From assembly GCF_032054105.1 (NCBI RefSeq), contig NZ_DAMBTK010000003.1: a stretch of DNA of 64,000 nucleotides; one strand, given 5' to 3'. Position 1 is the stretch's first letter. Every line of letters starts with the position of its first letter. The translations under genes were made by a program, and so were the position numbers. Of this stretch, positions 8,222 to 40,503 are shown piece after piece. The notes under the pieces are model-generated. The model was given only the letters and a program-made list of their open reading frames with translations. It had not been told where the DNA came from and searched no databases. This DNA is from Epilithonimonas sp. (GTDB taxonomy: Bacteria; Bacteroidota; Bacteroidia; Flavobacteriales; Weeksellaceae).

Positions 8222-9463
8222 ATGAACCAATCTTTCAACCTACTTTTCTACGTCAAAAAAACGAAGATAAACTCCCAAGGTGAAGCTCCAATTTATTTAC
8301 GAATTACCATCGATGGACGCGTTACCGAAATAAGCGTTAAAAGAACCACAAAACCACATTTATGGAATTCGGCTGGTCAGAAGTTGAATGGAAATTCCGA
8401 AGCGATTAAATCGTTTAATTTCTACCTTAAAACTTTTGAACAGAGGGTATATGACGCCTACCACGAGTTGATGAAGGATAAAGACTTGATCACTTGTGAA
8501 TCGCTCAAAAATAAATTACTCGGAACGGATATCAAAAGCAGAATGCTCCTCCCAATTTTTCAAGATCATAACAATAGGATGGAAAAATTGGTGGGTAAAG
8601 AATTTGCCATCGGAACACTTGGTAGGTACAAAACCTGTATGAGCCACACCAAAGCATTTTTAAAATGGAAATTCAAAACCAATGATATTGATATAAAGAA
8701 AATTGATTACGCCTTTCTTAACGATTTTGAGTTTTATCTACAAACAGAAAAAGGTTGCAACAATAATTCGGCGGTGAAATATTTGAAAAATTTTGGAAAG
8801 ATTATTCGGATTTGTTTAGCGAATGGCTGGCTTGATAAAGATCCATATCTCAATTATCAATCTAAATTCAATGAAGTTACTCGTGTATTTTTAAATGAGG
8901 ATGAATTGGAACGACTTTCGACAAAGAATTTCAAAAATGAGCGTCTTTCTCAAGTTCGAGATATTTTCCTTTTTAGTTGCTTTACAGGTCTTGCCTATAT
9001 TGATACAAAGAAATTGACCCATAAAAATATCAATCTTGGGTTAGATGGCAATAAGTGGATTTTCACGAAACGACAAAAAACTAAAACCACCTCTAATATT
9101 CCATTACTTCCGCACGCGGAAGATATTATTCAAAAATACAAGGAACACAAAACCTGTCTCAATACCGGAAAACTCTTGCCGGTTCTAAGCAATCAAAAAA
9201 TGAATGCCTATTTAAAGGAAATTGCTGATTTGTGTGGAATTAACAAAGAATTAACCTACCACATCGCAAGACATACCTTTGCTACCACCGTTACTTTGTC
9301 AAACGGTGTATCTATTGAAAGTGTAAGTAAAATGCTTGGCCATAAAAGCATTAAGACGACACAGCATTATGCGAAAATATTGGATGCTAAAGTGAGTGAG
9401 GATATGCAGATGTTAAAAGAAAAATTGGATTTTGGAAAAAAATCTGCTAAGAAAGTGATATAA
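8222..9463 (+). CDS. Tyrosine site-specific integrase (Bacteroidota type with N-terminal arm-binding domain)
   Basis: N-terminus FYVKK...APIYLRITIDGRVTEISV. C-terminal catalytic region HIARHTFATT...LGHKSIKTTQHYAK. Confidence 0.9.
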   Translation: MNQSFNLLFYVKKTKINSQGEAPIYLRITIDGRVTEISVKRTTKPHLWNSAGQKLNGNSEAIKSFNFYLKTFEQRVYDAYHELMKDKDLITCESLKNKLLGTDIKSRMLLPIFQDHNNRMEKLVGKEFAIGTLGRYKTCMSHTKAFLKWKFKTNDIDIKKIDYAFLNDFEFYLQTEKGCNNNSAVKYLKNFGKIIRICLANGWLDKDPYLNYQSKFNEVTRVFLNEDELERLSTKNFKNERLSQVRDIFLFSCFTGLAYIDTKKLTHKNINLGLDGNKWIFTKRQKTKTTSNIPLLPHAEDIIQKYKEHKTCLNTGKLLPVLSNQKMNAYLKEIADLCGINKELTYHIARHTFATTVTLSNGVSIESVSKMLGHKSIKTTQHYAKILDAKVSEDMQMLKEKLDFGKKSAKKVI

Positions 9464-17900: not shown

Positions 17901-19598
17901 TTATTCAAGTTCCTTTTTCCTCTGCTTAATAAAATCTGTCGGACGGATCCCATTTATTTCCAAAAAGAGATCTGAAAAGTTTTGTCGCGAAGAAATCCCA
18001 CATTCATCTGCCAAACCCTGTACTGAATAGCTCAAAACTTTAGCGTCGTTATACATGAGGTCGGTGACATAGTTGATCCTTAGAGTAGAGATATACTTAT
18101 TGAAATTCACGCCCATCACATCATTGATATATTGGGAGAGATATGTTGTATTAGTTTTAAAATTTTCCGCCAGTTGAGGAAGGGTTATTCCTTTTTCTTT
18201 AAAACTTTTTGAATCTTCAAATTCTTTTAGCTTTTCAGCCAAATCAGTGAAAACATCTTTGCTAATTACGGCTTTACTTTGTTGCGGAATATTTTCGTAA
18301 GAAACTGCTGGTGTAGGTTGGTGAGTTTGTAATCTCTCTTCTAATTCGGAATATTTTTTTCTGATGAGTTTTTCTTTTTGATAAAGCTTCCATGCTATAA
18401 AAATTAATCCAATTATAGCGAGAATTAATAATAATATTGCACCTAAACTCCAATAATTTTGCTTTTCTAATTTACCCTTCGCATCCTCTAAAATTTGAGT
18501 ATCGTAATCTTTATGAATTTTTGCAGAGAGATAAGGGAAGTCCTTGGCTAAAATGCTGTCTGCTTTCAGCAAATTCTTGGTGTAGTGGAGTTCTTGTTTA
18601 TCATTCTTTTTCTCTTTCCAATATTTGATGAGCAGTTCATAATTTTCGCGTAGTTCCGGAACAATAAATTTGTGTTTTTGGAAAATAGAATCAACCTTCT
18701 CAAACTGCTGTATCGCCTGTTCTTGTTTTCCCAATCCTAAATAACTTTTCCCAATATAAAAATCTGCAACTGATGCCCAGGAAAAATCATTGTTTTTTTT
18801 AAGCACTGGTAACGCGCTGGTAAGACTTTGAATTGCATCATCATAATTTTTTTGATGATACTCGAATATCCCTTTGCATTTTGTAAAATAGGCTTGTTCT
18901 AAAGGAAATTCTTTACTTTTATTTGTGAAATTTAGTCCCACTTCTACTAATGAATCCGCCTTTTTGTAATTTCCCAAATTCCTGTAGCAGATGGTGGCTT
19001 GGTGTAAACTGTTGAGGTAGCCTTTGCTATTATTAAAAATGGTGTTAGGATGTAAATCTCCCTTTGTTTTAGGCTCAAAATATTGAATACAATCCTCAAA
19101 ATGCTTCCGTGCTTCAATATAATAACCTAGGTAACTTTTTACCACACCCATGTGATAGATTACTTTGTATTTTTGGTACTCGTCAGTTCCTTTTTTAGAA
19201 TATTCATACGCTTTCACATATTCATCGAGAGCGGGTTCGTAGCGTTTTAGATTGAAGTAATAAATGGTTCCCTTGCCTAAATAAGAGCGACTGATAAGAT
19301 CATTATCATTAGTTTTTAACGAAGCACTGATACAACTGTCAGCAAATTTAAGTTTGTCATTAGGATTTGGCGAGAAATAAAAAGCATCTTCATACCCTTG
19401 TGTTAAAGCTTTATAATTCTTATCGGTTTTCGCTTTATTTATATAGACTTTTACAAATGGCAAGGCGTCTTGATCATTATGTTCATAACTCTCATACTTT
19501 TTTCTTAAATCCTCATAAGTGTTTTGAGCTTTCATTTTGAAGCAAAATGAAAGGAATAAAATAAGAATTGATATAAAATGATGTTTATTGATGAGCAT
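17901..19598 (-). CDS. Membrane-anchored TPR sensor fused to a C-terminal AraC-family HTH domain
   Basis: N-terminal signal/TM segment, TPR-like repeats, an internal TM segment (WSLGAILLLILAIIGLIFIAW), and a C-terminal AraC HTH (TTYLSQYINDVMGVNFNKY...GISSRQNFSDLFLEINGIRPTDF). Confidence 0.8.
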   Translation of the reverse strand: MLINKHHFISILILFLSFCFKMKAQNTYEDLRKKYESYEHNDQDALPFVKVYINKAKTDKNYKALTQGYEDAFYFSPNPNDKLKFADSCISASLKTNDNDLISRSYLGKGTIYYFNLKRYEPALDEYVKAYEYSKKGTDEYQKYKVIYHMGVVKSYLGYYIEARKHFEDCIQYFEPKTKGDLHPNTIFNNSKGYLNSLHQATICYRNLGNYKKADSLVEVGLNFTNKSKEFPLEQAYFTKCKGIFEYHQKNYDDAIQSLTSALPVLKKNNDFSWASVADFYIGKSYLGLGKQEQAIQQFEKVDSIFQKHKFIVPELRENYELLIKYWKEKKNDKQELHYTKNLLKADSILAKDFPYLSAKIHKDYDTQILEDAKGKLEKQNYWSLGAILLLILAIIGLIFIAWKLYQKEKLIRKKYSELEERLQTHQPTPAVSYENIPQQSKAVISKDVFTDLAEKLKEFEDSKSFKEKGITLPQLAENFKTNTTYLSQYINDVMGVNFNKYISTLRINYVTDLMYNDAKVLSYSVQGLADECGISSRQNFSDLFLEINGIRPTDFIKQRKKELE

Positions 19599-19871: not shown

Positions 19872-20087
19872 ATGAAAAAGTTTATCTCATTGGTAGCATT
19901 GGCTACATCATTAATTTCAGCAGTAAGTTGTAGAGAAGCAGAACAGATTACAGATCTTAAAGAAAGCCAGAGTTTTAATTTATCTGCAAAAGTAGCACAA
20001 GATTCTGTAGTGATTAATTCATCAACAAATACACCTGCAGAAAATACACCGAAAGACCCTCCGGTAAAAGATGGTCATGATTGGTAA
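19872..20087 (+). CDS. Small lipoprotein
   Basis: Lipobox ISAVSC; 71 aa. Confidence 0.55.
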   Translation: MKKFISLVALATSLISAVSCREAEQITDLKESQSFNLSAKVAQDSVVINSSTNTPAENTPKDPPVKDGHDW

Positions 20088-20128
20088 TTGCTAAATACCA
20101 AAATATTATTAAAATAAATTTATATACA

Positions 20129-20953
20129 ATGAAAAAGTTCGCATTATTTTTCTTGCTGTTTATCCTAATTGTTAATGCACAGACTAACCGATTTTTTTAT
20201 GAATTGCAATCAAGGAAGGATTCAACACAAGAATACAAGAAAAATTATATGGTTTTAGATGTTAACCCAAAATCAATAAAGTTTTATGATAAGGATCTTT
20301 TGGATTACGATTCCATTAACAAAAGTAAAGAGGGAGTGGCAGAATATAGAACAAATACCAAAACTGACCAGCTAATTATTAGAAAACCAAACAGTTTTAA
20401 AAATGACTGGTATAGAGATTTTAAAGAGTATTTTGTTATTCATACAAATGATGAAATGAAATGGAAACTATATCCTGATTCAAAGAATTATAATGTCTAT
20501 AAACTCCAAAAAGCGACTACAAATTTTGGTGGAAGAAAATGGACAGCTTGGTTTTGCAAAGATATTAACATTTCAGAAGGGCCATATAAATTTAGGGGAT
20601 TGCCAGGATTAATTTTTCTTCTAAATGATTCAGAAAATAATTTCATTTACAAATTAGTTAAAAACACAAAATTGAAAGATACCTATGATACGAAACAATT
20701 TTTGGAAAATCACTATGACCAAAAACCGTTGGTTGTCACTAATGAATTTTATAACAAATATTTAATTGATTTTTATGAGAACCCTACAAGGTTAATGGGT
20801 GAAAATATTAAGAGTGGAGGAAATGCTTCACTTAATGGAAAGCCAATTCAATCAATTGAAGAATTAAATAAAATGAAAAGGACGTTACAAAATGTTATTA
20901 GAGATCGCTATTTATACATTGAAAAAGATAAAGAGCCACATTTCGAGAAGTAA
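20129..20953 (+). CDS. GLPGLI-family protein
   Basis: Signal peptide MKKFALFFLLFILIVNAQ and the eponymous FRGLPGLIF motif. Start moved to the ATG at 20129. Confidence 0.8.
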   Translation: MKKFALFFLLFILIVNAQTNRFFYELQSRKDSTQEYKKNYMVLDVNPKSIKFYDKDLLDYDSINKSKEGVAEYRTNTKTDQLIIRKPNSFKNDWYRDFKEYFVIHTNDEMKWKLYPDSKNYNVYKLQKATTNFGGRKWTAWFCKDINISEGPYKFRGLPGLIFLLNDSENNFIYKLVKNTKLKDTYDTKQFLENHYDQKPLVVTNEFYNKYLIDFYENPTRLMGENIKSGGNASLNGKPIQSIEELNKMKRTLQNVIRDRYLYIEKDKEPHFEK

Positions 20954-21077
20954 TACAAATTTTGAGTTTAACTCATTCAAAATTTAGTTTTAAAAAATAA
21001 GAGGAATTTTCAAAGGCCACGAAAAATCTGTCTTACGTGTAATTCGTTTAATATTCATTAATCAAAAATCATTTACA

Positions 21078-21272
21078 ATGTTAAAAAAAAGATTAAAGAA
21101 AATCGCTAAGAAAAGCGACAACAAGAAAGAGATTGAGATCATAAAAGATGGAAATCTTTCTTCCGTAAAAGGAGGTATGGCAGAAGCACAAGTGTGTAGT
21201 TTACTGTACGACTGCAGTTTCAATTTTTCTGATTGTCCTCATCTACACAGTTGCGGGGCAAATTTTGCTTAA
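21078..21272 (+). CDS. RiPP precursor peptide with a double-glycine leader (GG-Bacteroidales-type) and a four-Cys core
   Basis: Lys-rich leader ending ...LSSVKGG. Predicted core MAEAQVCSLLYDCSFNFSDCPHLHSCGANFA (21177-21269). It sits immediately upstream of the rSAM maturase. Confidence 0.75.
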   Translation: MLKKRLKKIAKKSDNKKEIEIIKDGNLSSVKGGMAEAQVCSLLYDCSFNFSDCPHLHSCGANFA

Positions 21273-21280
21273 ACCAATTG

Positions 21281-21311
21281 CAGGCAAAATTTTCATTTTG
21301 CCTGTTTTTTT
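21281..21311 (+). terminator. Hairpin plus T-run between precursor and maturase (attenuating terminator)
   Basis: CAGGCAAAA-ttttca-TTTTGCCTG followed by ttttttt. Confidence 0.65.
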
Positions 21312-21322
21312 AAATTATTATT

Positions 21323-22678
21323 ATGAAATTATCAAAATACCACTTAACAACAGATTTATTGGATGATTATGATTTTCCAAATAAACAAATTCTTTTCTCT
21401 ACACGCACTGGAACATCATTAATGATTGATTCAGAAATTTATCAAAATTTAAAGACCGATAATTTCAACGCAATCAAAAATGACATGGTTGATCTACTTA
21501 AAAAGAATTTAATAATAGTAGATTCTGAGGAAGATGAGTTCTTAATTGTGACTTCAGAAAATGATAAATCTAGAGAAGAGGTAGATGTATTGTCATTCAC
21601 CATCCAACCTTCTGCAAATTGCCAGTTAGGATGCTATTATTGTGCACAAAATCATTCAAAAGATTATGCATCAGACGATATTATTGAGAAATATGTGAAG
21701 AGAATCTTACATTTTTTAGATTCAGGTAAAACTTATCGTGGACTCAATATTATTTGGTATGGTGGAGAACCTTTAACAGGATTAAGTTCAATCAAAAAAA
21801 CTACCAAAAAGTTACTTGAAATATGTAATGAGAGAGGTCTTCATTATAACGCATCAATGGTAACTAATGGCTTAAGTTTGAAAAAAGACATTTTCCAAGA
21901 TTTAGTGACAAATTATAAAATTCGAGATTTTCAAATAACATTAGATGGCTTAGCAGAATCGCATGATCAACGAAGATATACTAAAAGTGGTGAATCAACC
22001 TTTGATATTATTTTCAAGAATATTATCGACTGTACTAGAACTCAAGCTTATCAAAATAAACAAGGCGGTATTTCGATAAGAATAAATATTGATAAAACTA
22101 ACCATCAGTTTGTTAATCCACTACTGGAATATCTTGTTGAAAAAGAAATCAACAATTATGTTGCTGTAAGCTTTGCCCCTATTGTAGACTGGGGTGGTAA
22201 TGATGCAGGTAAAGATTCATTAACCAATGAACAATTTGCCGAGAAAGAAATCGAGTGGTTACTGTACTGCTTTGATAATAAAATAAAATTATCTAATCTT
22301 CTACCAACAAGAAAATATTATGCATGTATGGTGGAAAGAAATGATTCAGAGGTATTTGATGCTTTTGGCAATATATATACTTGTTGGGAATTTCCGTATA
22401 CAGATACATACGGACAAGATAAACATAAGATAGGGAATCTCAACAATGACTATGATACATATGACGAAAATGCCACATTAAGAAATTGGTCGGATGAAAT
22501 AAAAGCAGGAAAAACATGGTGTAAAACATGTTCACATTTGCCTGTTTGTGCTGGTTCTTGCCCTAAGTCATGGTACGAAGGTAAACCTGCATGCCCCGAA
22601 TTTAAATTTAACTATAAAGAAAAACTAATTTTAGATTACTATATCAGAAAAGAAAAAGAAATTCTTGCTGATGCTTAA
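21323..22678 (+). CDS. Radical SAM / SPASM-domain peptide maturase
   Basis: CxxxCxxC cluster (ANCQLGCYYCAQ), GGEPL, and a C-terminal SPASM Cys cluster (WCKTCSHLPVCAGSCP). Confidence 0.88.
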   Translation: MKLSKYHLTTDLLDDYDFPNKQILFSTRTGTSLMIDSEIYQNLKTDNFNAIKNDMVDLLKKNLIIVDSEEDEFLIVTSENDKSREEVDVLSFTIQPSANCQLGCYYCAQNHSKDYASDDIIEKYVKRILHFLDSGKTYRGLNIIWYGGEPLTGLSSIKKTTKKLLEICNERGLHYNASMVTNGLSLKKDIFQDLVTNYKIRDFQITLDGLAESHDQRRYTKSGESTFDIIFKNIIDCTRTQAYQNKQGGISIRINIDKTNHQFVNPLLEYLVEKEINNYVAVSFAPIVDWGGNDAGKDSLTNEQFAEKEIEWLLYCFDNKIKLSNLLPTRKYYACMVERNDSEVFDAFGNIYTCWEFPYTDTYGQDKHKIGNLNNDYDTYDENATLRNWSDEIKAGKTWCKTCSHLPVCAGSCPKSWYEGKPACPEFKFNYKEKLILDYYIRKEKEILADA

Positions 22679-24875
22679 GTTTTTTTCTCAATATGATTTA
22701 ATGGATTGTGGACCAGCTTGTCTTGCTATGGTTGCATCTTATTATGGCAAAAATTATGGATTGAGATATCTTCGGGAAAGATGCTTCTTAACAAGGGATG
22801 GAGTTTCGCTATTAGGAATAATTGAAGCATCAAAAAAAATAGGATTTAGTGTTGTTCCTGGGAAACTTCAAGTCAATGATATTGATTCAAAGGATCTACC
22901 CTGTATACTACATTGGAATAAAAATCATTTCGTAGTCCTTCACAAAATTTCTAGAAATTTTCTTACAAAAAAACTGACATATAAAATTGCAGATCCAGGA
23001 CATGGCTTTGTTTCCCTAGACAATGAAAAATTTAAAAAATCTTGGCTTTCTGATGGTAAAAAAGGTATTGCACTTTTTTTAGAACCAACAGATGAATTTT
23101 ATAAACAAACTCCACCAACAGAAGAAAAAATATCTGCAAAATATTTGTTAAAATATCTTCGCCCACACCAATCGCAGATGGGCTGGATGCTTTTTCTGCT
23201 TACTTTAGGAACACTCTCGACATTAGTTTTTCCTATTCTTACCCAAAAATTAATAGATGAGGGTGTAAGCAAGAAAAACCTGTCAGTAATTACATTGATT
23301 TTATTGGCTCAGCTCGCATTCTTCTTTGGAAATATTGTAATTAATATTTTTCGGAACTGGATTATGCTTGTCGTTGGTACAAAAATTAATATTCAAATTA
23401 TCTCAGACTTTCTTAAAAAGCTTTTGAAACTTCCCATTAAATTTTTTGATACTAAATTGATGGGTGACTTTAATCAACGCATCCAAGACCATGAAAGGAT
23501 AGAAAGTTTTCTCACTTCACAAAGTTTATTAACGCTCTTTTCAATTATAACTTTTACTGCTTTTTTTGGAGTGCTTTGGTATTACGATTTTAGAATTTTA
23601 GCAGTTTATATTATATTAACCATAATATCAGTTTTATGGTCTTTATACTGGATGAGAAAAAGAAAAATTCTAGATTATTTCAGATTCCAGCAAAGAAGCG
23701 AAAACCAAGAGTCTATTTACGAGATTATCAATGGTGTCTCTGAAATGAAGCTCAACCAATTTGAAGATTTTAAACGTAAAGAATGGGAAAATATCCAGCA
23801 AAAACTTTTTAAAATCAATATTCGCATTCTTAAGTTAGATCAAGTTCAACTTTCAGGATTTGAATTTATAAATCAGCTTAAAAACATTCTCGTAACTTTT
23901 CTCTCGGCTTATTTCGTAATAAAAGGACATATGACTCTAGGAGCACTTCTAAGTGTGTCCTACATTATTGGCCAAATGAATTCTCCAGTGAGCCAACTCA
24001 TCAATTTTTTCCGATCATTACAAGATGCAAAATTGAGTTTAGCAAGGCTAAACGAAGTGCAAAACAACCCTGAAGAAGAGCTGGAAAACCAAGTGCCGTT
24101 ACTTAGCAAAAAATATACAGAACAAAATGGCATAGAAAAAGGAATTTATTTCAAAAACGTTTCATTTCAATATGAAGGACCACAATCTCCGTATGTTCTA
24201 AAAGAGATCAATTTGTTTATTCCGGACGGAAAAATTACTGCTATAGTAGGAGCTAGTGGAAGCGGTAAAACCACTTTAATGAAAATGCTCTTAAAATTCT
24301 ATGAGCCAATAAAGGGTGAAATAAAATTTAATCATCTTAATCTAAGTGAAATTTCACCAACAGATCTGAGAAAAAATTGTGGTGTAGTAATGCAGGACGG
24401 TTTTATTTTTTCTGATACGATCGAGCGAAATATTGCAACAAGTGATGAAAATATTGATTATGAAAAACTAAATAAAGCTTTAGAAACGGCCAATATTAAA
24501 TCTTTTGTAGAAGAGCTTCCATTGGGATTAAAGACTAAAATTGGTGCTTCTGGTAACGGAATTTCCGGTGGACAGAAGCAAAGAATTCTTATTGCTAGAG
24601 CGGTTTATAAAAATCCACACTTCATTTTATTTGACGAAGCTACTTCTGCTTTGGATGCTGAAAATGAAAAAATAATTCACGATAATCTGCAATCTTTTTT
24701 TAGAGGAAAAACAGTAATAATTGTTGCCCACAGACTTTCAACAGTAAAAAACGCAGATCAAATTATTGTGCTTAAGAATGGTGAAATTGTGGATCAAGGA
24801 AATCACCAAGAACTGGTAAGCAAAAAGACGGATTATTTTAATCTTGTTAAAAATCAATTGGAACTAGGAAATTAA
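22671..24875 (+). CDS. Peptidase-C39-domain bacteriocin ABC transporter (leader-cleaving exporter)
   Basis: N-terminal C39 motif QYDLMDCGPACLAMVASYYG, six TM segments, Walker A GASGSGKTT, signature ISGGQKQR and Walker B ILFDEATSALD. The ATG at 22671 overlaps the rSAM stop. Confidence 0.92.
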   Translation: MLKFFSQYDLMDCGPACLAMVASYYGKNYGLRYLRERCFLTRDGVSLLGIIEASKKIGFSVVPGKLQVNDIDSKDLPCILHWNKNHFVVLHKISRNFLTKKLTYKIADPGHGFVSLDNEKFKKSWLSDGKKGIALFLEPTDEFYKQTPPTEEKISAKYLLKYLRPHQSQMGWMLFLLTLGTLSTLVFPILTQKLIDEGVSKKNLSVITLILLAQLAFFFGNIVINIFRNWIMLVVGTKINIQIISDFLKKLLKLPIKFFDTKLMGDFNQRIQDHERIESFLTSQSLLTLFSIITFTAFFGVLWYYDFRILAVYIILTIISVLWSLYWMRKRKILDYFRFQQRSENQESIYEIINGVSEMKLNQFEDFKRKEWENIQQKLFKINIRILKLDQVQLSGFEFINQLKNILVTFLSAYFVIKGHMTLGALLSVSYIIGQMNSPVSQLINFFRSLQDAKLSLARLNEVQNNPEEELENQVPLLSKKYTEQNGIEKGIYFKNVSFQYEGPQSPYVLKEINLFIPDGKITAIVGASGSGKTTLMKMLLKFYEPIKGEIKFNHLNLSEISPTDLRKNCGVVMQDGFIFSDTIERNIATSDENIDYEKLNKALETANIKSFVEELPLGLKTKIGASGNGISGGQKQRILIARAVYKNPHFILFDEATSALDAENEKIIHDNLQSFFRGKTVIIVAHRLSTVKNADQIIVLKNGEIVDQGNHQELVSKKTDYFNLVKNQLELGN

Positions 24876-32666: not shown

Positions 32667-32724
32667 AAACTTCTTGGAAATTAAGACAAATCAACAATAC
32701 TTTTGCTTTGCTTATCGAAAACCA

Positions 32725-33567
32725 ATGCAGGAATATTTTGAAAATATAATCGAAACACTCCAGGAAAACATCCGGGAATTATCCATGGAGATTGATAATC
32801 CCATTGTATTTTCCGAGTTGGCCGTCAAATTGAGTTTGGATACGCTTTCTGAGCTTAAAAAATATGTTCTTGAACATTCGTTTCAAAATATTGAAGATGA
32901 GATTTGGTTTTTCAAAAATATTAAACCAAAAATTCTTTCAAAATTAATTTATCATAATTCAGTTTTCAGAACTGAAACCAAAAAGCCAAATGGTGGTGAG
33001 AAAATTATTAGAAAATATTATGAAGCACAATTGGCCAAGCTCAAAAATTATTTTGAGAATAATTTAGAGTTTTATAAATATTACAGAACCGGAAATACCT
33101 TTCTGGATGATCATTATTTCGTGAGAGGCAAATATGATATAAAGCTGAGTTTGGATACTTATTTCTTTGAATCTGACCACTCTTTCACAACTTCTCACGA
33201 TTATAAAGTGGCCAAAATCATTGCAAATGATCAACTGCAGGTTTATCTTGAAAATGAACTCACCAATCTTTATAAAACACACAGCAGAGAGGAAAAAGAG
33301 TTGCTTTTGTCAGGTTTAAAATGGACGGCTCCCAAAGTTTCCCTAATTGAATTGCTTTATGCTCTGCATGCTGATGGAGTTTTTAACAATGGCGCTGTGG
33401 AACTAAAAGAAATTGCAGAAAGTTTTGAAAAAATATTCAATATCGATTTAGGACAGTTTCATAGAGTTTTTCTGGAAATAAGAATACGCAAATCGTCCAA
33501 AACAAAATTCCTTGATAATTTGAAGGAAACCCTTATAAAGAGAATGGATGATGCGGATGAAAATTAA
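32725..33567 (+). CDS. rteC: RteC-family regulator (conjugative-transposon excision regulation)
   Basis: LKWTAPKVSLIELLYALHADGVFNNGAVELKEIAESFEKIFNIDLGQFHRVFLEIRIRK is typical of RteC. Start moved from the TTG at 32674 to the ATG at 32725. Confidence 0.75.
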   Translation: MQEYFENIIETLQENIRELSMEIDNPIVFSELAVKLSLDTLSELKKYVLEHSFQNIEDEIWFFKNIKPKILSKLIYHNSVFRTETKKPNGGEKIIRKYYEAQLAKLKNYFENNLEFYKYYRTGNTFLDDHYFVRGKYDIKLSLDTYFFESDHSFTTSHDYKVAKIIANDQLQVYLENELTNLYKTHSREEKELLLSGLKWTAPKVSLIELLYALHADGVFNNGAVELKEIAESFEKIFNIDLGQFHRVFLEIRIRKSSKTKFLDNLKETLIKRMDDADEN

Positions 33568-33594
33568 TTATTACTAACCAAAATACATAATATT

Positions 33595-34791
33595 ATGAAA
33601 AAACATTTTTTTATTACATTAGCATGCTGTTTATTTTTACTATTCACATCATGCTCAGACTCTTCAATATCAACTCAATTTGATGAAAGAGGTTCTGAAA
33701 AAATCACAAAGTTTACTTCTGATATAAATGAAGAAGCTGATGCAGCAATTCAGGAAGAAGCAAATTTAAAGATTGGGAAATTAATGCAAGCTTTTGGAGC
33801 GAAAACTGTATTAGGGAAAACCAATATAAGTTACCCAGATTATTATGGAGGTTCATTCATATCTGACAAAGGTATATTAACCATTTATATTTCAGGTAAG
33901 TTTAGCACCGGTAAAAAAGAAATATTGAAGATAATTGATGAGGACAAAGTAAAATTTAAGCCAGCAAAGTTTTCGTATAGGTATTTAACGGAATTAATGG
34001 ATGAGTTGAACCTTTGGGCGATAACAAAAGAGAATCCAAGTTTACTAAATTTTATTTCAACCTTTGGTGTGATGGATGAATTTAATACGATTGAAGTGAA
34101 CGTGCTGGGATTGGATGAATACAAGAAAACTTTATTAGAAAAATCCATATTTGGGAAAGAAGGAATAAAATTTACAAATGCAAGTGGTAGAGTTAAATTA
34201 GAAACAATGATATATCCGGGATGTGCCGTTGATAGAACCTCTTCCATGGTCACCGCTGGTTCAGTAGGATTTAAGGCAAAAAGAAATTCTGATGGAAAAA
34301 TCGGATTTGTTACTGCCGGTCATGCAATATCAGTTGGCGAAACTGCTTATTATGGAGGTGCAGCGGTTGGCACTTGTGCAAATTCAAAACAATCTGGAAC
34401 GGTTGATGCTGCTTTTGTTGTTTTAAATAATATATCAACAGATGAAGTAAGTAATACACTTTGCAGCACTGTTGACAATTTGTCTTTATCTACAACTCTT
34501 CCCGGTGTTGGAACAGTTGTTAATAAAAGAGGTAGGCAGACGGGGGCAACATCTGGTAAGATTTTAAGTACGAATATAAGTATAATTAGTGCTACAGGGG
34601 AAACTATTGATAATATGTCAACTGCAGATTATAATAGTGATGAGGGTGATAGTGGTGGTACTGTTTATACTTACATAAGTAGTACTGGAGCAAGACCAAC
34701 AGCTGGAATACATATGGGTGCAATTGGAACGACAAGATATTTTACAAAAGCTACAAATATCCTTAGTACTTTTGGATTATCTAGGAATTAA
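33595..34791 (+). CDS. Lipoprotein S1-family (alpha-lytic/chymotrypsin-fold) serine protease with an N-terminal pro-region
   Basis: Lipobox LFTSC. Catalytic triad context VTAGHAI, TVDAAFV and DEGDSGGTVY. Confidence 0.8.
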   Translation: MKKHFFITLACCLFLLFTSCSDSSISTQFDERGSEKITKFTSDINEEADAAIQEEANLKIGKLMQAFGAKTVLGKTNISYPDYYGGSFISDKGILTIYISGKFSTGKKEILKIIDEDKVKFKPAKFSYRYLTELMDELNLWAITKENPSLLNFISTFGVMDEFNTIEVNVLGLDEYKKTLLEKSIFGKEGIKFTNASGRVKLETMIYPGCAVDRTSSMVTAGSVGFKAKRNSDGKIGFVTAGHAISVGETAYYGGAAVGTCANSKQSGTVDAAFVVLNNISTDEVSNTLCSTVDNLSLSTTLPGVGTVVNKRGRQTGATSGKILSTNISIISATGETIDNMSTADYNSDEGDSGGTVYTYISSTGARPTAGIHMGAIGTTRYFTKATNILSTFGLSRN

Positions 34792-34823
34792 AAATAAGTA
34801 ACTTAATTATTAAAAATAAAGTA

Positions 34824-35303
34824 ATGAGAAGTTTGCTTTTATTATTGCTTACTATAAGTTATGGATGTAACAAAAAACTCAATCCTACAAATCCATCTGT
34901 TAATAAATATACAATGAATGAAAATGTCTTAAATAGAAGTGAAAAAACGGAGGTAGTACTAAAAATTTCACCAAAAATTTTCAATTATTCTGATTCAAAA
35001 AAAGAGGGTACTTATAAACTCATAAATAATACTGAAAATCAAATATTATATTCAAGCGATTTTATTATTGAGAAATTTAATGATGAAAAATGGTTAAAAC
35101 AGGCTTTAGATCCTAAATTAGTTTTTGGAGAGATTAATTATTCATTAGAAAAGAAAACCTCGAAATCCTATCCGCTTTTTTTGGTAACATTTATGAAAGA
35201 TAAGAAGTTAGAAAGAGGACGTTATAGAATCGGTAAAAGAATATGGCCGACAAAGAACTCCAAAGATATTAGATATATATATGATGAATTTTTAATTGAT
35301 TAG
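34824..35303 (+). CDS. Small lipoprotein of unknown function
   Basis: Lipobox ISYGC; 159 aa. It lies immediately downstream of the protease. Confidence 0.5.
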   Translation: MRSLLLLLLTISYGCNKKLNPTNPSVNKYTMNENVLNRSEKTEVVLKISPKIFNYSDSKKEGTYKLINNTENQILYSSDFIIEKFNDEKWLKQALDPKLVFGEINYSLEKKTSKSYPLFLVTFMKDKKLERGRYRIGKRIWPTKNSKDIRYIYDEFLID

Positions 35304-35357
35304 TTTGAAACAATCACAACTTTGTGCAACTTGTGATTTGCAACTTGTACATCTTTT

Positions 35358-35402
35358 AAACCCTAAAAAGTAATTTTTAATACTGCTTTTTAGGGTTTTT
35401 TG
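35358..35402 (+). terminator. Rho-independent terminator
   Basis: AAACCCTAAAAAG...CTTTTTAGGGTTT followed by tttt. Confidence 0.7.
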
Positions 35403-35496
35403 TTGAAAAAAAATCGTTCACAACTTCGGTTATGATTGTGAAAAAACATAACAAATAAGGCTAAACTTTGTCGCCCTAATCAAATTTTTAATCATT

Positions 35497-35757
35497 ATGG
35501 CACTCGAAGTTTTAACCAAAGAAGATCTTCAGGAATTCAAAACAGAATTATTGGAAGACATCAAAAACCTGTTTCACATTAGAACCACAGAACAAAAATT
35601 GTGGCTTCGCTCTGCAGAAGTAAAAGAATTACTCAAAATTTCATCCGGAACATTACAGAATTTGCGCATTAACGGAACGCTTCGCTTTTCCCGCGTCGGC
35701 GGAACTCTCTACTACAACTACCAGGACATCGAAAAACTCCTACAGTCTGACAAATAA
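35497..35757 (+). CDS. Excisionase-family / MerR-like HTH DNA-binding protein
   Basis: 86 aa with WLRSAEVKELLKISSGTLQNLRINGTLRFSRVGGTLYYNYQDIEKLL. Confidence 0.75.
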   Translation: MALEVLTKEDLQEFKTELLEDIKNLFHIRTTEQKLWLRSAEVKELLKISSGTLQNLRINGTLRFSRVGGTLYYNYQDIEKLLQSDK

Positions 35758-35790
35758 TCACTGAATTATTGACCTAGGAGTTATTTGCGT

Positions 35791-35945
35791 GAAGAAAAAT
35801 CCAAATTTCTTGATAACTACAAGTTGAACTTTTACCGAATAAAAAATTCCCACTGTTTGAGCGCGCCAAAGTTTTGTTAAGCAATTCAAATAGTGAATCG
35901 CGCGAGTTTTGGGAATTTTCTTAAAAGAAATTTGAATTTTTTAGC
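35791..35945. repeat. Composite inverted repeat in an intergenic region
   Basis: Left arm: AAGAAAAATCCAAATTTCTT (35792-35811) and AAAATTCCCA..GCGCGC (35843-35866). Right arm: CGCGCG..TGGGAATTTT (35899-35919) and AAGAAATTTGAATTTTTT (35925-35942). A further hairpin GTCTTGAA/TTCAAGAC lies at 35957-35988. Confidence 0.5.
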
Positions 35946-36011
35946 AAATAAATCCAGTCTTGAATTTTTGATTCTTTTGTTTCAAGACAAAGAATAATAA
36001 ACAATAAAATA

Positions 36012-36884
36012 ATGAACTATATCCGTCACCTTACAGGCTTCTACGACCGCATACAAGAAGACGACCGCCTCAATCCAACGCACATAAGTCTGTATTTGGC
36101 CTTATTTCAGTTTTGGAATCTCAACCACTTCCGAAATCCAATCAGCATTTCCCGAAACGAGATGATGAAACTTAGCAAGATTTCGGCGTACGGAACATAC
36201 CACAAATGCATCAAGGAACTGCATCAATTCGGCTATATTGACTATTTACCATCCTTCAATCCTTACAAAGGAAGTTTGGTGCATCTGTTTAATTTTGGAG
36301 ATTTAGATAAAATCGGCGATGAAGAAAATTTTATTCAAAATCAAAAAAGCACCCATTCAAAAAATGAACGGGAATCTATTCAAAAATCGGACAACCGCCG
36401 TGTCAAAAAACAGACAGGTTCTGAACAAGCAATGAATAGCAATGATACCAAAATCGATACAGGTTATGAACAAGCATTGATACCTTCTAAAAACCTATCA
36501 AACTATAAAAACTTTACAAAGAGAGCGGCGCAACCGCAAAAATTATTGGTGGAAGAAAATAGATTTAATTCAAAAATGGAAAGGCAGGGTTCTAATATTC
36601 CACCCGAGTTATGGGAAGTGAAAATGTATTTCGAGGAAAAAGATTCCACAATTTTTGAAGCCGAAAAATTTTTTAACCACTACGAAAGCAACGGATGGCT
36701 TGTCGGCGGAAATTCTCTAATGAAAAATTGGCAGGCAAGTGCTAGAAAATGGCTTTTGAACAGCAAAAAATATGGTTTTGAAAGTTCGAAATCTACAAAT
36801 AGTGGATTGTCAAAAATGGCTTCTATTCCGAAAGCAAATCATCTGAATGCGAACATACGTAAATCCTATCAAGAAAAACTCTGA
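36012..36884 (+). CDS. Winged-HTH-like protein with a C-terminal NGW motif (replication-initiator-like); function unknown
   Basis: N-terminus ISLYLALFQFWN...ISISRNEMMKLSKISAYGTYHKCIKELHQFGYIDY. C-terminus FFNHYESNGWLVGGNSLMKNWQASARKW. It is a paralogue of 39829-40500. Confidence 0.5.
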   Translation: MNYIRHLTGFYDRIQEDDRLNPTHISLYLALFQFWNLNHFRNPISISRNEMMKLSKISAYGTYHKCIKELHQFGYIDYLPSFNPYKGSLVHLFNFGDLDKIGDEENFIQNQKSTHSKNERESIQKSDNRRVKKQTGSEQAMNSNDTKIDTGYEQALIPSKNLSNYKNFTKRAAQPQKLLVEENRFNSKMERQGSNIPPELWEVKMYFEEKDSTIFEAEKFFNHYESNGWLVGGNSLMKNWQASARKWLLNSKKYGFESSKSTNSGLSKMASIPKANHLNANIRKSYQEKL

Positions 36885-36898
36885 AAATTTTAATCATT

Positions 36899-37540
36899 AT
36901 GCAACTTCCCAAACGAGAAATTGAAGTATCCTACGATTATAGGCAGGTTGTAATGAACTTTACCAAAATCGCAGAGGAATATCTCAGTAGAAAGTTTCAA
37001 ATCGCAGAAAACGAACGGGGAATTATTTTCGGAATTCTGGCTTGGTTTCTACAAGATGATTTAATCGCAAAAGAAATGAACATCGATCTGAATAAAGGAT
37101 TGTTTCTTACAGGACCAATCGGCTGTGGAAAAACCACTTTGTTGAAATTGATGCAGAAATTTCCTTCCCAAAGAAGATCTTTCAGAATGTTTTCTACAAG
37201 GCAGATTGTATCAGAATTTATGCAATCGGGATATGAGACCATTGAGAAATATTCACGAGGAAATCTTTACAATGAAACACGGCAACCACAAGCAATTTGT
37301 TTTGATGACCTTGGCGCAGAGTCGGCGTCGAAGTACTTCGGAAACGATTGTAATGTAATGGCAGAAATTCTACTCACACGCTACGATTTATTTAAAGAAA
37401 AAGGATTGATAACGCATATTACGACCAATCTAACCGCAACAGAAATTGAAACCATTTACGGAAATCGTTTGCGTTCGAGAATGAGGGAAATGTTTAATCT
37501 TTTTGGATATGAGGAAAGTTGTAGGGATAAGAGAAGCTAA
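36899..37540 (+). CDS. P-loop ATPase (DnaC/IstB-like helper)
   Basis: Walker A GPIGCGKTT and Walker B ICFDDLG; about 210 aa. Confidence 0.65.
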   Translation: MQLPKREIEVSYDYRQVVMNFTKIAEEYLSRKFQIAENERGIIFGILAWFLQDDLIAKEMNIDLNKGLFLTGPIGCGKTTLLKLMQKFPSQRRSFRMFSTRQIVSEFMQSGYETIEKYSRGNLYNETRQPQAICFDDLGAESASKYFGNDCNVMAEILLTRYDLFKEKGLITHITTNLTATEIETIYGNRLRSRMREMFNLFGYEESCRDKRS

Positions 37541-37751
37541 TATTCATTCCCAAAACTCTTATACAATATTTTATTCTTGCAATTTTATTAAACGATACAA
37601 ACAAAAAAAATGTTTATAATTGATTTTATGTTTGAAAATCAATACTTTATAATTTGTCTTTCACTATTGGTAATTTGTAATAATTGCATAAATTTGGGTG
37701 TTATGTGCAAGGATATGAGAACCCGCTTCAATAGAAAATCCAGATATAAAT

Positions 37752-39410: not shown

Positions 39411-39556
39411 TCTTTGCACTTAAAAATCCATGCACATAACATATTCTTTCTCAAAAAAATAAACCTATCAACCCACTTCTTTACCATTTGAATATCTTGT
39501 AGCATTCTTCTTATCACTTTACTTTTATCAAAATTTTCATAAAAGTAATAACTAAA

Positions 39557-39832
39557 ATGAAGGGAAAAGAGGAAAAGGAAACCAAGAAATACCTGTGGCA
39601 ACTCACCATTGAGGAGTTCAGGGAACTGCAAATTGAAATCACCAAAGAAAAAACCTACGAATACGGTATCAAAGGATTGGCGAAAATTTTAGGTTGTTCC
39701 CGTTCCAAAGCCTACCAAATCAAAGCATCGGGAATTTTAAATGATGCCATTATCCAAAACGGAAAAGTCATCGTTATTGATGTAGAAAAGGCACTTCGAC
39801 TACTATCCGAAAACAATTCTGCACAAAAATGA
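39557..39832 (+). CDS. Small HTH DNA-binding protein
   Basis: 91 aa with GIKGLAKILGCSRSKAYQIKASG. Its stop overlaps the next gene's start (ATGA). Confidence 0.6.
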   Translation: MKGKEEKETKKYLWQLTIEEFRELQIEITKEKTYEYGIKGLAKILGCSRSKAYQIKASGILNDAIIQNGKVIVIDVEKALRLLSENNSAQK

Positions 39833-40500
39833 CGATTGATAAATTGGTTCAACGCTTTTGGAATCATAGCGGTTTCGGTGCATTGGGAACTTCAAGCGTT
39901 TCGATGTATTTCTATTTGTTGTGGCAGTTGAAAAACAATCAGTTAAAAGAATTTTCCGTTGCTGACACTCAAATTTCACGAGATTTGGGAATCAGTAGAA
40001 ATACGGTAAGAATTTGCCGTGAAAAATTGAAAAGGGTAGGGCTTTTATATTTTGAAATTCCGAGAGGCGGTTCCGTGCAGTATAATTTTGAAAAAACATA
40101 TGATTCGAAAAACTGTGTAAGCAAATCCGAAGATTTGCAAAAGGATAAAATAATTCTAAAGAAACAGAAGATAAACAAACTTGTCAAAACGGAATTAGCA
40201 AATTCAGAAATTACACCAACAATCACAGAAATCCAAAAATTGAATTCGGAAATAAGCATTCCATCTTTTGATGAATTTCTTTCATTTGCCAAAACCCTTG
40301 AGTTCTACCAAGAAAATATGCAAAACGCTCTTGAAGAAAAATACAGAAATTGGTTAGAAAATGGTTGGAAAAACGCATTGGGAAAACCCATCACCAATTG
40401 GAAACTCTCGGTAAAAAACCTCATTCCTTACCTGCAAAATGCGCCTTCCAATTCCATTTCTTTACAAAAAGTTCCCAATATCACTCGTCCAAAAGAATAG
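39829..40500 (+). CDS. Winged-HTH-like protein with a C-terminal NGW motif (paralogue of 36012-36884)
   Basis: SMYFYLLWQLKN...FSVADTQISRDLGISRNTVRICREKLKRVGLLYF, and a C-terminus YRNWLENGWKNALGKPITNWK. Confidence 0.5.
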   Translation: MTIDKLVQRFWNHSGFGALGTSSVSMYFYLLWQLKNNQLKEFSVADTQISRDLGISRNTVRICREKLKRVGLLYFEIPRGGSVQYNFEKTYDSKNCVSKSEDLQKDKIILKKQKINKLVKTELANSEITPTITEIQKLNSEISIPSFDEFLSFAKTLEFYQENMQNALEEKYRNWLENGWKNALGKPITNWKLSVKNLIPYLQNAPSNSISLQKVPNITRPKE

Positions 40501-40503
40501 GAT

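What the first reader, a model, noticed from the sequence alone, without database searches (positions are those of the whole stretch)
21078..24875. ICE-borne radical-SAM RiPP locus: GG-leader four-Cys precursor, SPASM maturase and C39 exporter
The 64-aa precursor has a Lys-rich leader ending VKGG and the core MAEAQVCSLLYDCSFNFSDCPHLHSCGANFA, with Cys spacing 6-8-6. An attenuating hairpin follows it, then an rSAM/SPASM enzyme and a leader-cleaving ABC exporter. The architecture matches the GG-Bacteroidales precursor/maturase families defined only by genome mining. The product chemistry (sactionine or ranthionine-type thioethers, or other crosslinks) and its activity are, to my knowledge, uncharacterised. 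Here the locus is mobile cargo.
Basis: partly seen in the sequence, partly recalled or inferred. Interest (0 to 1): 0.65.

Follow-up and report, generated by a model that had tools for sequence, protein, structure and literature searches.

The report
Radical-SAM modified-peptide cluster on an ICE
This is a real three-gene cassette (a four-cysteine peptide, a radical-SAM enzyme that most likely cross-links it, and a cleaving exporter) carried on a conjugative element; it belongs to a widespread but uncharacterised Bacteroidota family, so it is a useful genome-mining lead and not a new kind of system.

Summary
All three ORFs, the GG leader, the four-Cys core and the hairpin are at the stated coordinates. 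One detail is wrong: the Cys spacing is 6-7-6, not 6-8-6. The enzyme has the expected RRE, radical-SAM and 7-Cys SPASM regions. The exporter is a full-length PCAT with an intact C39 catalytic set. The cassette lies between a tRNA-Asp-adjacent integrase and RteC plus tra genes, so it is ICE cargo. In Chryseobacterium tagetis the same cassette is chromosomal.

The link to the "GG-Bacteroidales" families is not supported. The precursor matches no NCBIfam or Pfam model. The maturase is below the cut-off of every curated family; the best is TIGR04463 at 218 bits against a cut-off of 525.

It belongs to an unnamed family found almost only in Bacteroidota (662 maturase homologs at E<=1e-10). I read 28 precursors that share C-x2-L-x2-C-x2-[N/Y/F]-x3-C-x2-L-x2-C-x2-[N/Y/F]. 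In 51 related loci the PCAT follows the maturase in 37. A hairpin follows the last precursor gene in 23 of 26.

The most likely mechanism is leader-guided thioether cross-linking of the four Cys, then cleavage after GG and export. The chemistry and the activity remain inferred.

The parts
17901..19598 (-). Divergently transcribed TPR / single transmembrane helix / AraC-HTH regulator. It has an N-terminal signal peptide, TPR repeats, one TM helix at about aa 387-410 and a C-terminal HTH_18 domain. It is the candidate regulator of the cassette.
   Evidence: Pfam TPR_12 and HTH_18. It travels with the cassette in every ICE variant. A homolog lies upstream of the rSAM locus in L001, L003, L006, L012, L027, L040 and L044. 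The topology is read from the sequence; the regulatory role is inferred.
19872..20087 (+). 71-aa predicted lipoprotein (lipobox ...LISAVSC). It is a constant member of the cassette and its function is unknown; immunity or an accessory role is speculation.
   Evidence: ORF. It was called as a gene in all eight contigs. It is 41% identical in L003.
20081..20953 (+). GLPGLI-family secreted protein. The likely start is the internal ATG that gives MKKFALFF... It is a constant upstream neighbour of the precursor gene in the Cloacibacterium/Chryseobacterium subgroup.
   Evidence: TIGR01200 at 146 bits against a cut-off of 50. Pfam Porph_ging. Conserved in L001 (61%) and L003 (81%).
21013..21043 (+). 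Conserved upstream box AAGGCCACG-N13-ACGTGTAAT, about 60 nt before the precursor ATG. It is a candidate promoter or regulator-binding site.
   Evidence: The same GGCCACG ... A[C/A]GTGT boxes occur at -63 and -57 in L003 and L001, while the rest of the intergenic sequence has diverged. The function is inferred.
21078..21272 (+). Precursor peptide of 64 aa: a 33-aa double-glycine leader and the 31-aa core MAEAQVCSLLYDCSFNFSDCPHLHSCGANFA. The core is a tandem of two C-x2-L-x2-C-x2-N-F units.
   Evidence: The identical peptide is indexed in 84 blocks of the assembly collection.
21280..21312 (+). Intrinsic-terminator-like hairpin (11-bp stem, 4-nt loop) plus a T7 run, lying between the precursor and maturase genes.
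   Evidence: dG -13.8, z -3.0. A strong stem-loop occupies the same position in 23 of 26 related loci.
21323..22678 (+). rSAM/SPASM peptide maturase of 451 aa. It has an N-terminal RRE-like wHTH (aa 1-85), the motif C100-x3-C104-x2-C107, and the SPASM motif C335-x13-G-x4-C354 ... C400-x2-C403-x5-C409-x3-C413 ... C424.
   Evidence: Pfam Radical_SAM. TIGR04085 SPASM at 47.6 bits against a cut-off of 27. All listed Cys are invariant in a 13-sequence alignment. AF2 model with pLDDT 79, and best Foldseek hits CteB, anSME and TigE. CteB is the only sequence hit in the PDB.
22671..24875 (+). Peptidase-containing ABC transporter (PCAT). The C39 domain carries Q9, C15, H88 and D110 (numbering of the 736-aa ORF). 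It also has six-helix TMD region and an NBD with Walker A, signature and Walker B motifs.
   Evidence: Pfam Peptidase_C39, ABC_membrane and ABC_tran, all above threshold. It aligns end to end with PCAT1 4RY2 (E 4e-100) and with ComA. Catalytic motifs located.
8222..9463 (+). ICE context, left end: a tyrosine integrase 250 nt downstream of tRNA-Asp (7897-7971).
   Evidence: Arm-DNA-bind_5, Phage_int_SAM_5, Phage_integrase.
32674..63860 (.). ICE context: RteC (32674-33567), a methylase/helicase giant protein (40504-46140), a coupling protein (51198-53189), TraN/DUF4138, TraM, a TraJ/TrbL-like protein and a TraG/VirB4-type ATPase (60783-63860). GC is 0.41-0.45 here against 0.28-0.32 in the cargo.

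Best explanation
This is a leader-dependent RiPP cassette.

1. The precursor gene is transcribed from its own upstream control region. The hairpin and T-run behind it stop or stabilise most transcripts, so the peptide mRNA outnumbers the enzyme and exporter mRNA (inferred).
2. The N-terminal RRE-like domain of the maturase binds the conserved leader (MLKKxLK...[I/F]E[I/V]I.D...[I/V].GG) (inferred).
3. The radical-SAM centre abstracts hydrogen atoms from acceptor residues. With the help of the two SPASM clusters, the four invariant Cys thiols are joined to them as intramolecular thioethers. There are only seven invariant SPASM Cys, so Aux I may have an open site as in CteB. The most probable acceptors are the other conserved core positions: the two invariant Leu (Cys+3) and the two N/Y/F positions (Cys+3). 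This would give small i->i+3 rings in each of two tandem C-x2-L-x2-C-x2-[N/Y/F] units. This step is inferred. Whether the links are at C-alpha (sacti) or C-beta/gamma (ranthi) is open.
4. The PCAT, whose gene overlaps the maturase gene and is probably translationally coupled to it, cleaves after Gly33 with its C39 Cys/His/Asp site. It then pumps the 31-residue product across the inner membrane. The architecture is shown; the activity is inferred.
5. No membrane-fusion protein is encoded, so the product may first reach the periplasm. There the TPR domain of the neighbouring TPR-TM-AraC regulator could sense it (speculative).

The biological role is most likely a narrow-spectrum antimicrobial or a signal. 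The cassette moves as cargo of a CTn-type ICE in Cloacibacterium, but it is chromosomal in at least one relative.
For: Domains and motifs.

Order of similarity to curated maturase families: TIGR04463 at 218 bits, CefB 195, Clo7bot 175, geopeptide 156, FlmE/OhkG 117, PapB (ranthipeptide) 109. These all exceed SCIFF/CteB 66, QhpD 60 and the sactisynthase RumMC 45.

The closest relatives by family name act on Cys-rich peptides. The closest characterised ones (PapB, CteB) make thioethers.

In 19 aligned cores the four Cys and two Leu are invariant and the Cys+3 positions are restricted to N/Y/F. Nine of ten further representatives keep the pattern.

Synteny across 51 loci: the PCAT is downstream in 37. 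A post-precursor hairpin is present in 23 of 26 loci.

The SPASM seven-Cys motif and the open Aux I site of CteB are described in PMC6231123.

ICE context.
Against: No experiment exists, and no member of this maturase family is characterised.

Every curated family score is far below its cut-off, so the chemistry cannot be transferred by homology.

SPASM enzymes with the same fold make C-C, C-O and cyclopropyl links or epimerise residues; TigE, SuiB, ChlB and EpeE are among the fold hits.

Four Cys exported to an oxidising periplasm could simply form two disulfides.

The seven-Cys argument is weak, because a non-invariant Cys316 exists upstream.

The RNA-run data were only low-depth assembled contigs. 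They show neither expression nor attenuation.

No immunity gene is recognisable.
Confidence: 0.6

Rival explanations
1. The product is a classical sactipeptide. The four Cys are linked to alpha-carbons of acceptor residues (sactionine bridges), not to side-chain carbons.
For: The architecture of RRE, rSAM and SPASM is the same. Sactipeptide acceptors often include Phe, Tyr and Asn (established knowledge of subtilosin, thurincin H and ruminococcin C). The sactisynthase-type models RumMC, CcpM and lachnocin all give weak hits.
Against: Sactisynthase models score lowest among the peptide maturases (RumMC 45 bits, N-terminal part only), below PapB at 109. The Cys are spread over both halves of the core, not clustered in one arm of a hairpin. 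Restricting the acceptor candidates to N/Y/F and Leu suggests that the side chain matters, which alpha-linkage would not require (inference).
Confidence: 0.2
2. The maturase installs a non-thioether modification, such as a C-C or C-O cross-link on the conserved N/Y/F or Leu positions, or an epimerisation. The four Cys form two disulfides after export.
For: Fold hits include TigE (8VPO), SuiB (5V1T), ChlB (9GMC) and the epimerase EpeE, all annotated in the PDB as radical SAM enzymes. From my own knowledge, not tested here, TigE is a cyclopropyl synthase, SuiB makes a Lys-Trp C-C link and ChlB makes other cross-links. Cyclophane-forming families (GrrM/OscB, YhhB, FxsB) give weak HMM hits. The product enters an oxidising compartment. 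A thioredoxin-like gene (10572-11915) lies in the same cargo region.
Against: These families score at or below 60 bits, lower than the Cys-peptide and thioether group. The invariant residues are dominated by Cys, in a fixed register across genera. The Trx/SusCD block is absent from other variants that carry the identical cassette (L058-L060).
Confidence: 0.15
3. The cassette is a decaying or silent passenger of the ICE with no functional product.
For: There is no expression evidence and no recognisable immunity gene.
Against: All three ORFs are intact and every catalytic motif is present. The identical precursor is seen in 84 blocks of the assembly collection, with the maturase 100% identical across different ICE variants. 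The core is conserved while the leader and flanks diverge (P0123). Synteny is conserved across Bacteroidota.
Confidence: 0.05

Closest known systems
TIGR04463 family radical SAM/SPASM RiPP maturase (rSAM_vs_C_rich); also CefB (Cys-every-fifth), Clo7bot and geopeptide maturases
   Same: These are the best-scoring curated families over nearly the full length (aa 36-437 for TIGR04463). All are rSAM/SPASM enzymes paired with short peptides, and those peptides are Cys-rich by family name.
   Different: The scores are 218, 195, 175 and 156 bits against cut-offs of 525, 600, 600 and 400, so this is not a member of any of them. To my knowledge these families were themselves defined by genome mining and their chemistry is unknown. 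Their precursors are different.
PapB / freyrasin (ranthipeptide; Cys-Asp beta-thioethers)
   Same: It is an rSAM/SPASM thioether synthase acting on repeated short Cys-containing motifs and making small rings. It is the closest family with known chemistry (109 bits, aa 89-415).
   Different: The score is below the cut-off of 340. The PapB model begins at the radical-SAM domain of this protein (aa 89-415). The precursor motif here is C-x2-L-x2-C-x2-[N/Y/F] and not repeated C-x3-D. The conserved Asp/Glu acceptors are absent.
CteB / thermocellin (SCIFF maturase; PDB 5WGG/5WHY)
   Same: It is the only sequence hit in the PDB (E 2e-8) and the top fold match covering RRE, rSAM and SPASM. Both have seven conserved SPASM Cys. 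[quoted passage not shown]
   Different: Identity is 16%. The TIGR03974 score is 66 against a cut-off of 425. The precursor is not a SCIFF peptide. The taxonomic range also differs: Firmicutes versus Bacteroidota.
NxxcB / NxxC peptides of streptococci (Cys-Asn beta-thioether)
   Same: It is a precedent, recalled from the literature and not tested here, for an rSAM thioether between Cys and an Asn three residues away. That matches the C-x-x-N spacing seen twice in this core.
   Different: The order is reversed (N-x-x-C there, C-x-x-N here). No sequence comparison was possible with the tools. This is a lead only.
   Same: It shares the Bacteroidota host range, a GG-type leader and an rSAM maturase.
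   Different: The precursor gives no hit even at E<=10. The maturase model is not among the 25 best hits, all of which score at least 35 bits. No pseudo-rSAM gene is present in the cassette. The accession numbers are from memory.
PCAT1 (C. thermocellum), ComA, LahT-type peptidase-containing ABC transporters
   Same: It aligns over the full length with PCAT1 and ComA. The C39 Gln/Cys/His/Asp set is intact. The substrate has a canonical double-glycine leader.
   Different: The host is diderm, yet no adjacent membrane-fusion protein or TolC-like gene is present. The NCBIfam equivalog scores are below their cut-offs (TIGR03796 465/853; TIGR01193 378/524).

Membership tests
SPASM-subfamily radical SAM RiPP maturase | CX3CX2C radical-SAM cluster motif | tested here: met
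   C100-QLG-C104-YY-C107 is present. All three Cys are invariant in 13 homologs. Pfam PF04055 scores 37.6 against 29.5.
SPASM-subfamily radical SAM RiPP maturase | Seven-Cys SPASM motif CX9-15GX4C-gap-CX2CX5CX3C-gap-C | tested here: met
   C335-x13-G349-x4-C354 ... C400-x2-C403-x5-C409-x3-C413 ... C424, all invariant. TIGR04085 scores 47.6 against a cut-off of 27. The motif definition is from PMC6231123.
SPASM-subfamily radical SAM RiPP maturase | N-terminal RiPP recognition element (wHTH) | tested here: inconclusive
   The AF2 model has three strands and three helices in aa 1-85 at pLDDT about 90. The Foldseek alignment to CteB spans the whole length. No RRE/PqqD HMM hit was obtained.
SPASM-subfamily radical SAM RiPP maturase | Adjacent short precursor peptide co-conserved with the enzyme | tested here: met
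   One to three precursors lie directly upstream in most of the 51 loci.
TIGR04463 (rSAM_vs_C_rich) maturase family | HMM score at or above the curated cut-off (525 bits) | tested here: not met
   217.8 bits.
PapB-family ranthipeptide maturase (NF047865) | HMM score at or above the curated cut-off (340 bits) | tested here: not met
   108.8 bits.
Ranthipeptide (class) | Thioether from Cys sulfur to a non-alpha carbon of the acceptor residue | not testable with these tools
   This needs MS/MS, NMR or isotope labelling of the modified peptide.
Sactipeptide (class) | Thioether from Cys sulfur to the alpha-carbon of the acceptor residue | not testable with these tools
   The same experiments are needed. 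Sactisynthase HMMs are only weakly matched (RumMC 44.8 against 720).
SCIFF / CteB system (TIGR03974) | HMM score at or above 425 bits, and a SCIFF-type precursor | tested here: not met
   66.1 bits. The precursor has no NCBIfam hit.
GG-Bacteroidales rSAM system | Precursor matches the family's target-peptide model | tested here: not met
   No peptide-family hit even at E<=10. Only three chance-level matches to unrelated enzymes were returned.
GG-Bacteroidales rSAM system | Maturase matches the family model above its cut-off, and a pseudo-rSAM partner gene is present | tested here: not met
   The model is not among the 25 best families, whose lowest score is 35 bits. No second rSAM-like ORF lies between 17.9 and 25 kb.
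Peptidase-containing ABC transporter (PCAT) | N-terminal C39 peptidase with catalytic Cys/His/Asp and oxyanion Gln, plus ABC TMD and NBD | tested here: met
   Pfam C39 scores 106.5 against 22, ABC_membrane 111.9 against 28 and ABC_tran 105.9 against 25. Q9, C15, H88 and D110 were located. It aligns end to end with PCAT1 4RY2.
Peptidase-containing ABC transporter (PCAT) | Substrate with a double-glycine leader (hydrophobic residues at -4, -7, -12, -15) | tested here: met
   V-4, L-7, I-12 and I-15 precede GG33, read directly from the sequence. The leader is conserved across homologs.
Bacteroidetes-type conjugative transposon / ICE | Integrase plus conjugation genes (coupling protein, TraG/VirB4 ATPase, TraJ, TraM, TraN) and RteC flanking the cargo | tested here: met
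   The integrase is next to tRNA-Asp.
Bacteroidetes-type conjugative transposon / ICE | Direct-repeat att sites at both ends | not testable with these tools
   The right end lies beyond base 64000. The 3' end of the tRNA occurs only once in the window.

The most novel reading that the evidence does not exclude
The family makes a cross-link pattern that has not been described. In it, each of two tandem C-x2-L-x2-C-x2-[N/Y/F] units carries two i->i+3 thioethers, one of them to an invariant leucine side chain. The exported product would act as a periplasm-sensed autoinducer for the adjacent TPR-TM-AraC regulator and not as an antibiotic. It would then be a horizontally transferable signalling module.
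Probability: 0.15. Interest if true: 0.65.

Novelty: new member of a known kind. Interest (0 to 1): 0.38.

Why it matters
The cassette gives a compact three-gene entry point to a large orphan RiPP family of Bacteroidota. The family has at least 662 maturase homologs and a sharply defined precursor motif, but no curated model and no known product. Solving one member would assign chemistry to hundreds of clusters. It could also extend the acceptor range of rSAM thioether synthases to Leu, Asn, Tyr or Phe.

The ICE location shows that such peptide modules are exchanged together with defence systems: Kiwa occupies the neighbouring variable slot in sister elements. This is relevant to competition in wastewater and host-associated Flavobacteriales.

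It is not conceptually new. It has the standard architecture of a genome-mined rSAM RiPP.

Tried and rejected
- RNA evidence. The look-up of sequencing runs and read laying returned only low-depth Logan contigs of runs guessed to be RNA. Contigs span the hairpin (21081-21940 in X1; 20729-22189 in X2), but depth is flat and DNA cannot be excluded. There is no conclusion on expression or attenuation.
- Literature. Eight full-text searches found no paper on this family. FlmE/OhkG turned out to belong to the unrelated 'DD(I/V)LF' precursor clusters (PMC12703449). The Bacteroidales mining paper (PMC10352776) and the rSAM compendium (PMC10288494) do not mention these genera or this motif. Subscription journals are not covered.
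- Plasmids. A tblastn search found no relative above 35% identity.
- att site. The 3' end of the tRNA-Asp is not repeated in the window.
- Bacteroidetes -7 consensus TAnnTTTG. It was not found upstream of the precursor, the regulator or the maturase.
- The extra ~325-aa helical protein found between rSAM and PCAT in distant loci. It is not similar to the TPR protein of the second locus and is absent from this cassette.
- OMP_b-brl_3 gene at 25205-27370. I first took it for part of this locus, because such a gene precedes the precursors in 32 of 51 loci. It is missing from ICE variants that carry the identical cassette and sits in front of the second GG peptide, so I assign it to that second locus.
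- Precursor profile search of 1.84 billion representatives. It gave only 12 hits, because short ORFs are poorly represented. It was useful for the motif but not for estimating family size.

Full report
**1. Observation**

- The 64-aa precursor is at 21078-21272.
- The 451-aa maturase is at 21323-22678.
- The 736-aa transporter ORF is at 22665-24875.

Gene callers on eight independent contigs start the transporter at the ATG that corresponds to 22671. That start overlaps the maturase stop codon by 8 nt.

The leader ends in VKGG. It has hydrophobic residues at -4, -7, -12 and -15, which is the classical double-glycine pattern. The core is exactly as quoted. Its Cys are at core positions 7, 13, 20 and 26, so the spacing is 6-7-6 and not 6-8-6.

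The segment 21280-21305 folds into an 11-bp stem followed by seven T. Its dG is -13.8 kcal/mol, with z = -3.0 and 1 of 200 shuffles folding as well.

**2. The proteins**

*Maturase.* It hits Pfam Radical_SAM and the NCBIfam SPASM domain above threshold. It carries C100-x3-C104-x2-C107 and the complete seven-Cys SPASM motif. All of these Cys are invariant in an alignment of 13 homologs down to 43% identity.

An AlphaFold model (pLDDT 79) shows an N-terminal three-strand, three-helix module, a partial TIM barrel and a C-terminal SPASM region. Its best PDB fold matches are CteB, anSME and TigE. CteB is the only PDB chain found by sequence.

Against curated families the order of scores is as follows:

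| Family | Score (bits) | Cut-off (bits) |
|---|---|---|
| TIGR04463 | 218 | 525 |
| CefB | 195 | 600 |
| Clo7bot | 175 | 600 |
| geopeptide | 156 | 400 |
| FlmE/OhkG | 117 | 500 |
| PapB | 109 | 340 |

HxsB, anSME, DynA, SCIFF/CteB, QhpD and others follow at 60-70 bits, and the sactisynthase RumMC scores 45. The enzyme is therefore a member of no curated family. It is nearest to enzymes that act on Cys-rich peptides and, among characterised ones, to thioether synthases.

*Transporter.* It has C39, ABC_membrane and ABC_tran domains. It aligns end to end with PCAT1 and ComA. It retains the oxyanion Gln9, Cys15, His88 and Asp110.

**3. The family**

A search of 5.8 billion proteins found 662 maturase homologs at E<=1e-10. 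All of them carry only generic names.

A scan of one genome per species returned 52 loci. Nearly all are Bacteroidota:
- Cloacibacterium normanense (96% identity)
- Chryseobacterium tagetis (76%)
- Flavobacterium, Mucilaginibacter, Empedobacter, Cecembia, Chitinophaga and Pedobacter
- plus two Chromobacterium genomes and an unclassified 'Proteobacteria bacterium' MAG (L051)

The window is therefore most probably from a Cloacibacterium.

Small ORFs directly upstream of the maturases encode one to three precursors with the same leader. In the subgroup with at least 53% maturase identity, 19 aligned cores share C-x2-L-x2-C-x2-[N/Y/F]-x3-C-x2-L-x2-C-x2-[N/Y/F]. The four Cys and two Leu are invariant. 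Nine of ten further peptides from a profile search of 1.84 billion representatives keep this pattern.

The core is thus a tandem duplication of a ten-residue unit. More distant loci have a single unit of the type C-x5-7-C-x3-[F/Y], and they carry an extra ~325-aa helical protein between maturase and transporter.

Neither Pfam nor NCBIfam has a model that touches the precursor, even at E<=10.

**4. Synteny and regulation**

Of the 51 loci that contain the maturase, 37 have the PCAT downstream on the same strand. An OMP_b-brl_3 barrel lies upstream in 32, and a TPR-AraC regulator lies nearby in 7.

A strong stem-loop follows the last precursor gene in 23 of 26 loci examined, although the sequences are unrelated. 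This supports a conserved role in transcript termination or stabilisation.

In the window, in L003 and in L001 a box AAGGCCACG ... A[C/A]GTGT lies about 60 nt before the precursor ATG, in otherwise diverged spacers.

The divergent regulator at 17901-19598 has a signal peptide, TPR repeats, one TM helix and a C-terminal AraC HTH. This is the topology of a periplasmic sensor with a cytoplasmic DNA-binding domain.

**5. Mobile context**

The cargo lies between two sets of ICE genes.
- On the left, tRNA-Asp (7897-7971) is followed by a Bacteroidetes-type integrase.
- On the right come RteC, a methylase/helicase giant protein, a coupling protein, TraN, TraM, a TraJ-like protein and a TraG/VirB4-type ATPase.

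GC is 0.28-0.32 in the cargo and 0.41-0.45 in the transfer region.

The exact precursor is indexed in 84 blocks of the assembly collection. In the eight contexts read, one block is constant: regulator, 71-aa lipoprotein, GLPGLI protein, precursor, maturase and PCAT. The slot between the PCAT and RteC varies. It holds one of the following:
- the OMP plus a second GG-peptide locus, as in this window;
- a Kiwa (KwaA/KwaB) defence system;
- a 711-aa protein.

The upstream SusC/D block is also replaceable.

In Chryseobacterium tagetis the cassette lies between dapB/lepB and wbqC/subtilase genes, so it is chromosomal there. In C. normanense IMET F it is flanked by primase-like, ImmA/HTH and E2/multiubiquitin genes. 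No close relative is on a sequenced plasmid.

**6. Mechanism**

Shown:
- the domain architecture
- the catalytic motifs
- the co-conservation of precursor, maturase and PCAT
- the GG leader
- the hairpin
- the ICE location

Inferred:
- the leader binds the RRE
- the radical-SAM and SPASM chemistry cross-links the four Cys
- the PCAT cleaves after Gly33 and exports the 31-mer

I favour thioethers for three reasons. The invariant positions are dominated by Cys in a fixed register. The nearest families act on Cys-rich peptides, with PapB and CteB the nearest characterised ones. Only seven SPASM Cys are invariant, as in CteB, whose Aux I has an open site that binds a substrate Cys (PMC6231123).

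The other conserved positions are the obvious acceptor candidates: Leu at Cys+3 and N/Y/F at Cys+3. N, Y and F share an activated beta-methylene group. From memory, a Cys-Asn beta-thioether is known from NxxcB. This favours side-chain (ranthionine-type) links, but only weakly.

Two rivals remain. One is alpha-linked sactionines. The other is a non-thioether modification combined with periplasmic disulfides. SPASM enzymes of the same fold catalyse many other reactions.

No membrane-fusion protein or TolC-type gene accompanies the PCAT. The product may therefore first reach the periplasm, where the TPR domain of the regulator could sense it. This is speculation.

**7. Comparison and novelty**

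The system works like a PCAT-exported, rSAM-cross-linked Cys-rich RiPP. It is not a member of TIGR04463, PapB, SCIFF, RumMC or the GG-Bacteroidales families, because every score-based membership test failed.

I found no publication on the family, with the caveat that subscription journals are not searchable here.

I rate it a new, unnamed family within a well-known kind. It is a good target for heterologous expression but it is not surprising in concept.

Noticed in passing
window 25205-32462: A second, unrelated GG-leader peptide locus. It comprises an OMP_b-brl_3 barrel (25205-27370) and a 47-aa peptide MKKLSLDAFKKKAKSTEVTTLLTQVVGG|KGVAQDCHPGDTSCPATSL (27455-27598) followed by its own hairpin (27608-27630). 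Next come a 392-aa protein (27769-28947), a 152-aa protein, a TPR protein and a second PCAT (30255-32462, 47% identical to the first). The 392-aa protein has an invariant DDIAHQxGH motif. Its relatives are named 'HEXXH motif domain-containing protein'. Its AF2 model (pLDDT 84) best matches the HExxH alpha-ketoglutarate-dependent oxygenase domain of ChlBHExxH (8S5F, E 5e-7) and SjiH. It is probably a hydroxylated-peptide RiPP locus with Gln in place of the motif's Glu.
   Followed up: partly
L054 13873-18719 and L057 (sister ICE variants): In sister elements that carry the identical rSAM cassette, the slot between the PCAT and RteC holds a Kiwa defence system (KwaA/KwaB) plus five small ORFs, or a 711-aa protein. 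In this window the same slot holds the second peptide locus. The slot is therefore a variable cargo site of this ICE family.
   Followed up: partly
window 21013-21043; L003 about 5689-5720; L001 about 5644-5670: A conserved box AAGGCCACG ... A[C/A]GTGT(A/T) lies about 60 nt upstream of the precursor start in three species, while the surrounding spacer has diverged. Other subfamilies have a different repeated box (for example CGTAAAACT, or GTAA.ATC...AAACTTTCTC) before each precursor gene. These are candidate promoter or regulator sites.
   Followed up: partly
window 1-2301 and L001 11046-13302: In Chryseobacterium tagetis the rSAM cassette lies about 1.5 kb from homologs of the chromosomal genes at the far left of this window (ORFs 37-972, 1100-1597, 1612-2301; 48-80% identity). 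The cassette and the ICE insertion site thus share a chromosomal neighbourhood in two genera.
   Followed up: no
window 16000-40000 versus 40000-64000: There is a sharp GC step. The cargo region is 0.28-0.32 GC and the transfer region 0.41-0.45, which suggests that the ICE backbone and its cargo have different origins.
   Followed up: no
window 37752-39410 and 40504-46140: A 552-aa protein carries DUF7830, DUF6035 and DUF7829 domains with a CoiA-like nuclease domain. A 1878-aa protein fuses Toprim, an Eco57I-type methylase and an SNF2 helicase. Both are typical ICE accessory or anti-restriction genes and were not examined further.
   Followed up: no
window 19642 / 21323 (run X18): One assembled contig of run X18 joins 19642 to 21323 with 10 unmatched letters between them, and has long loose ends on both sides. 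It could be a variant lacking the lipoprotein, GLPGLI and precursor genes, or a chance short match.
   Followed up: no
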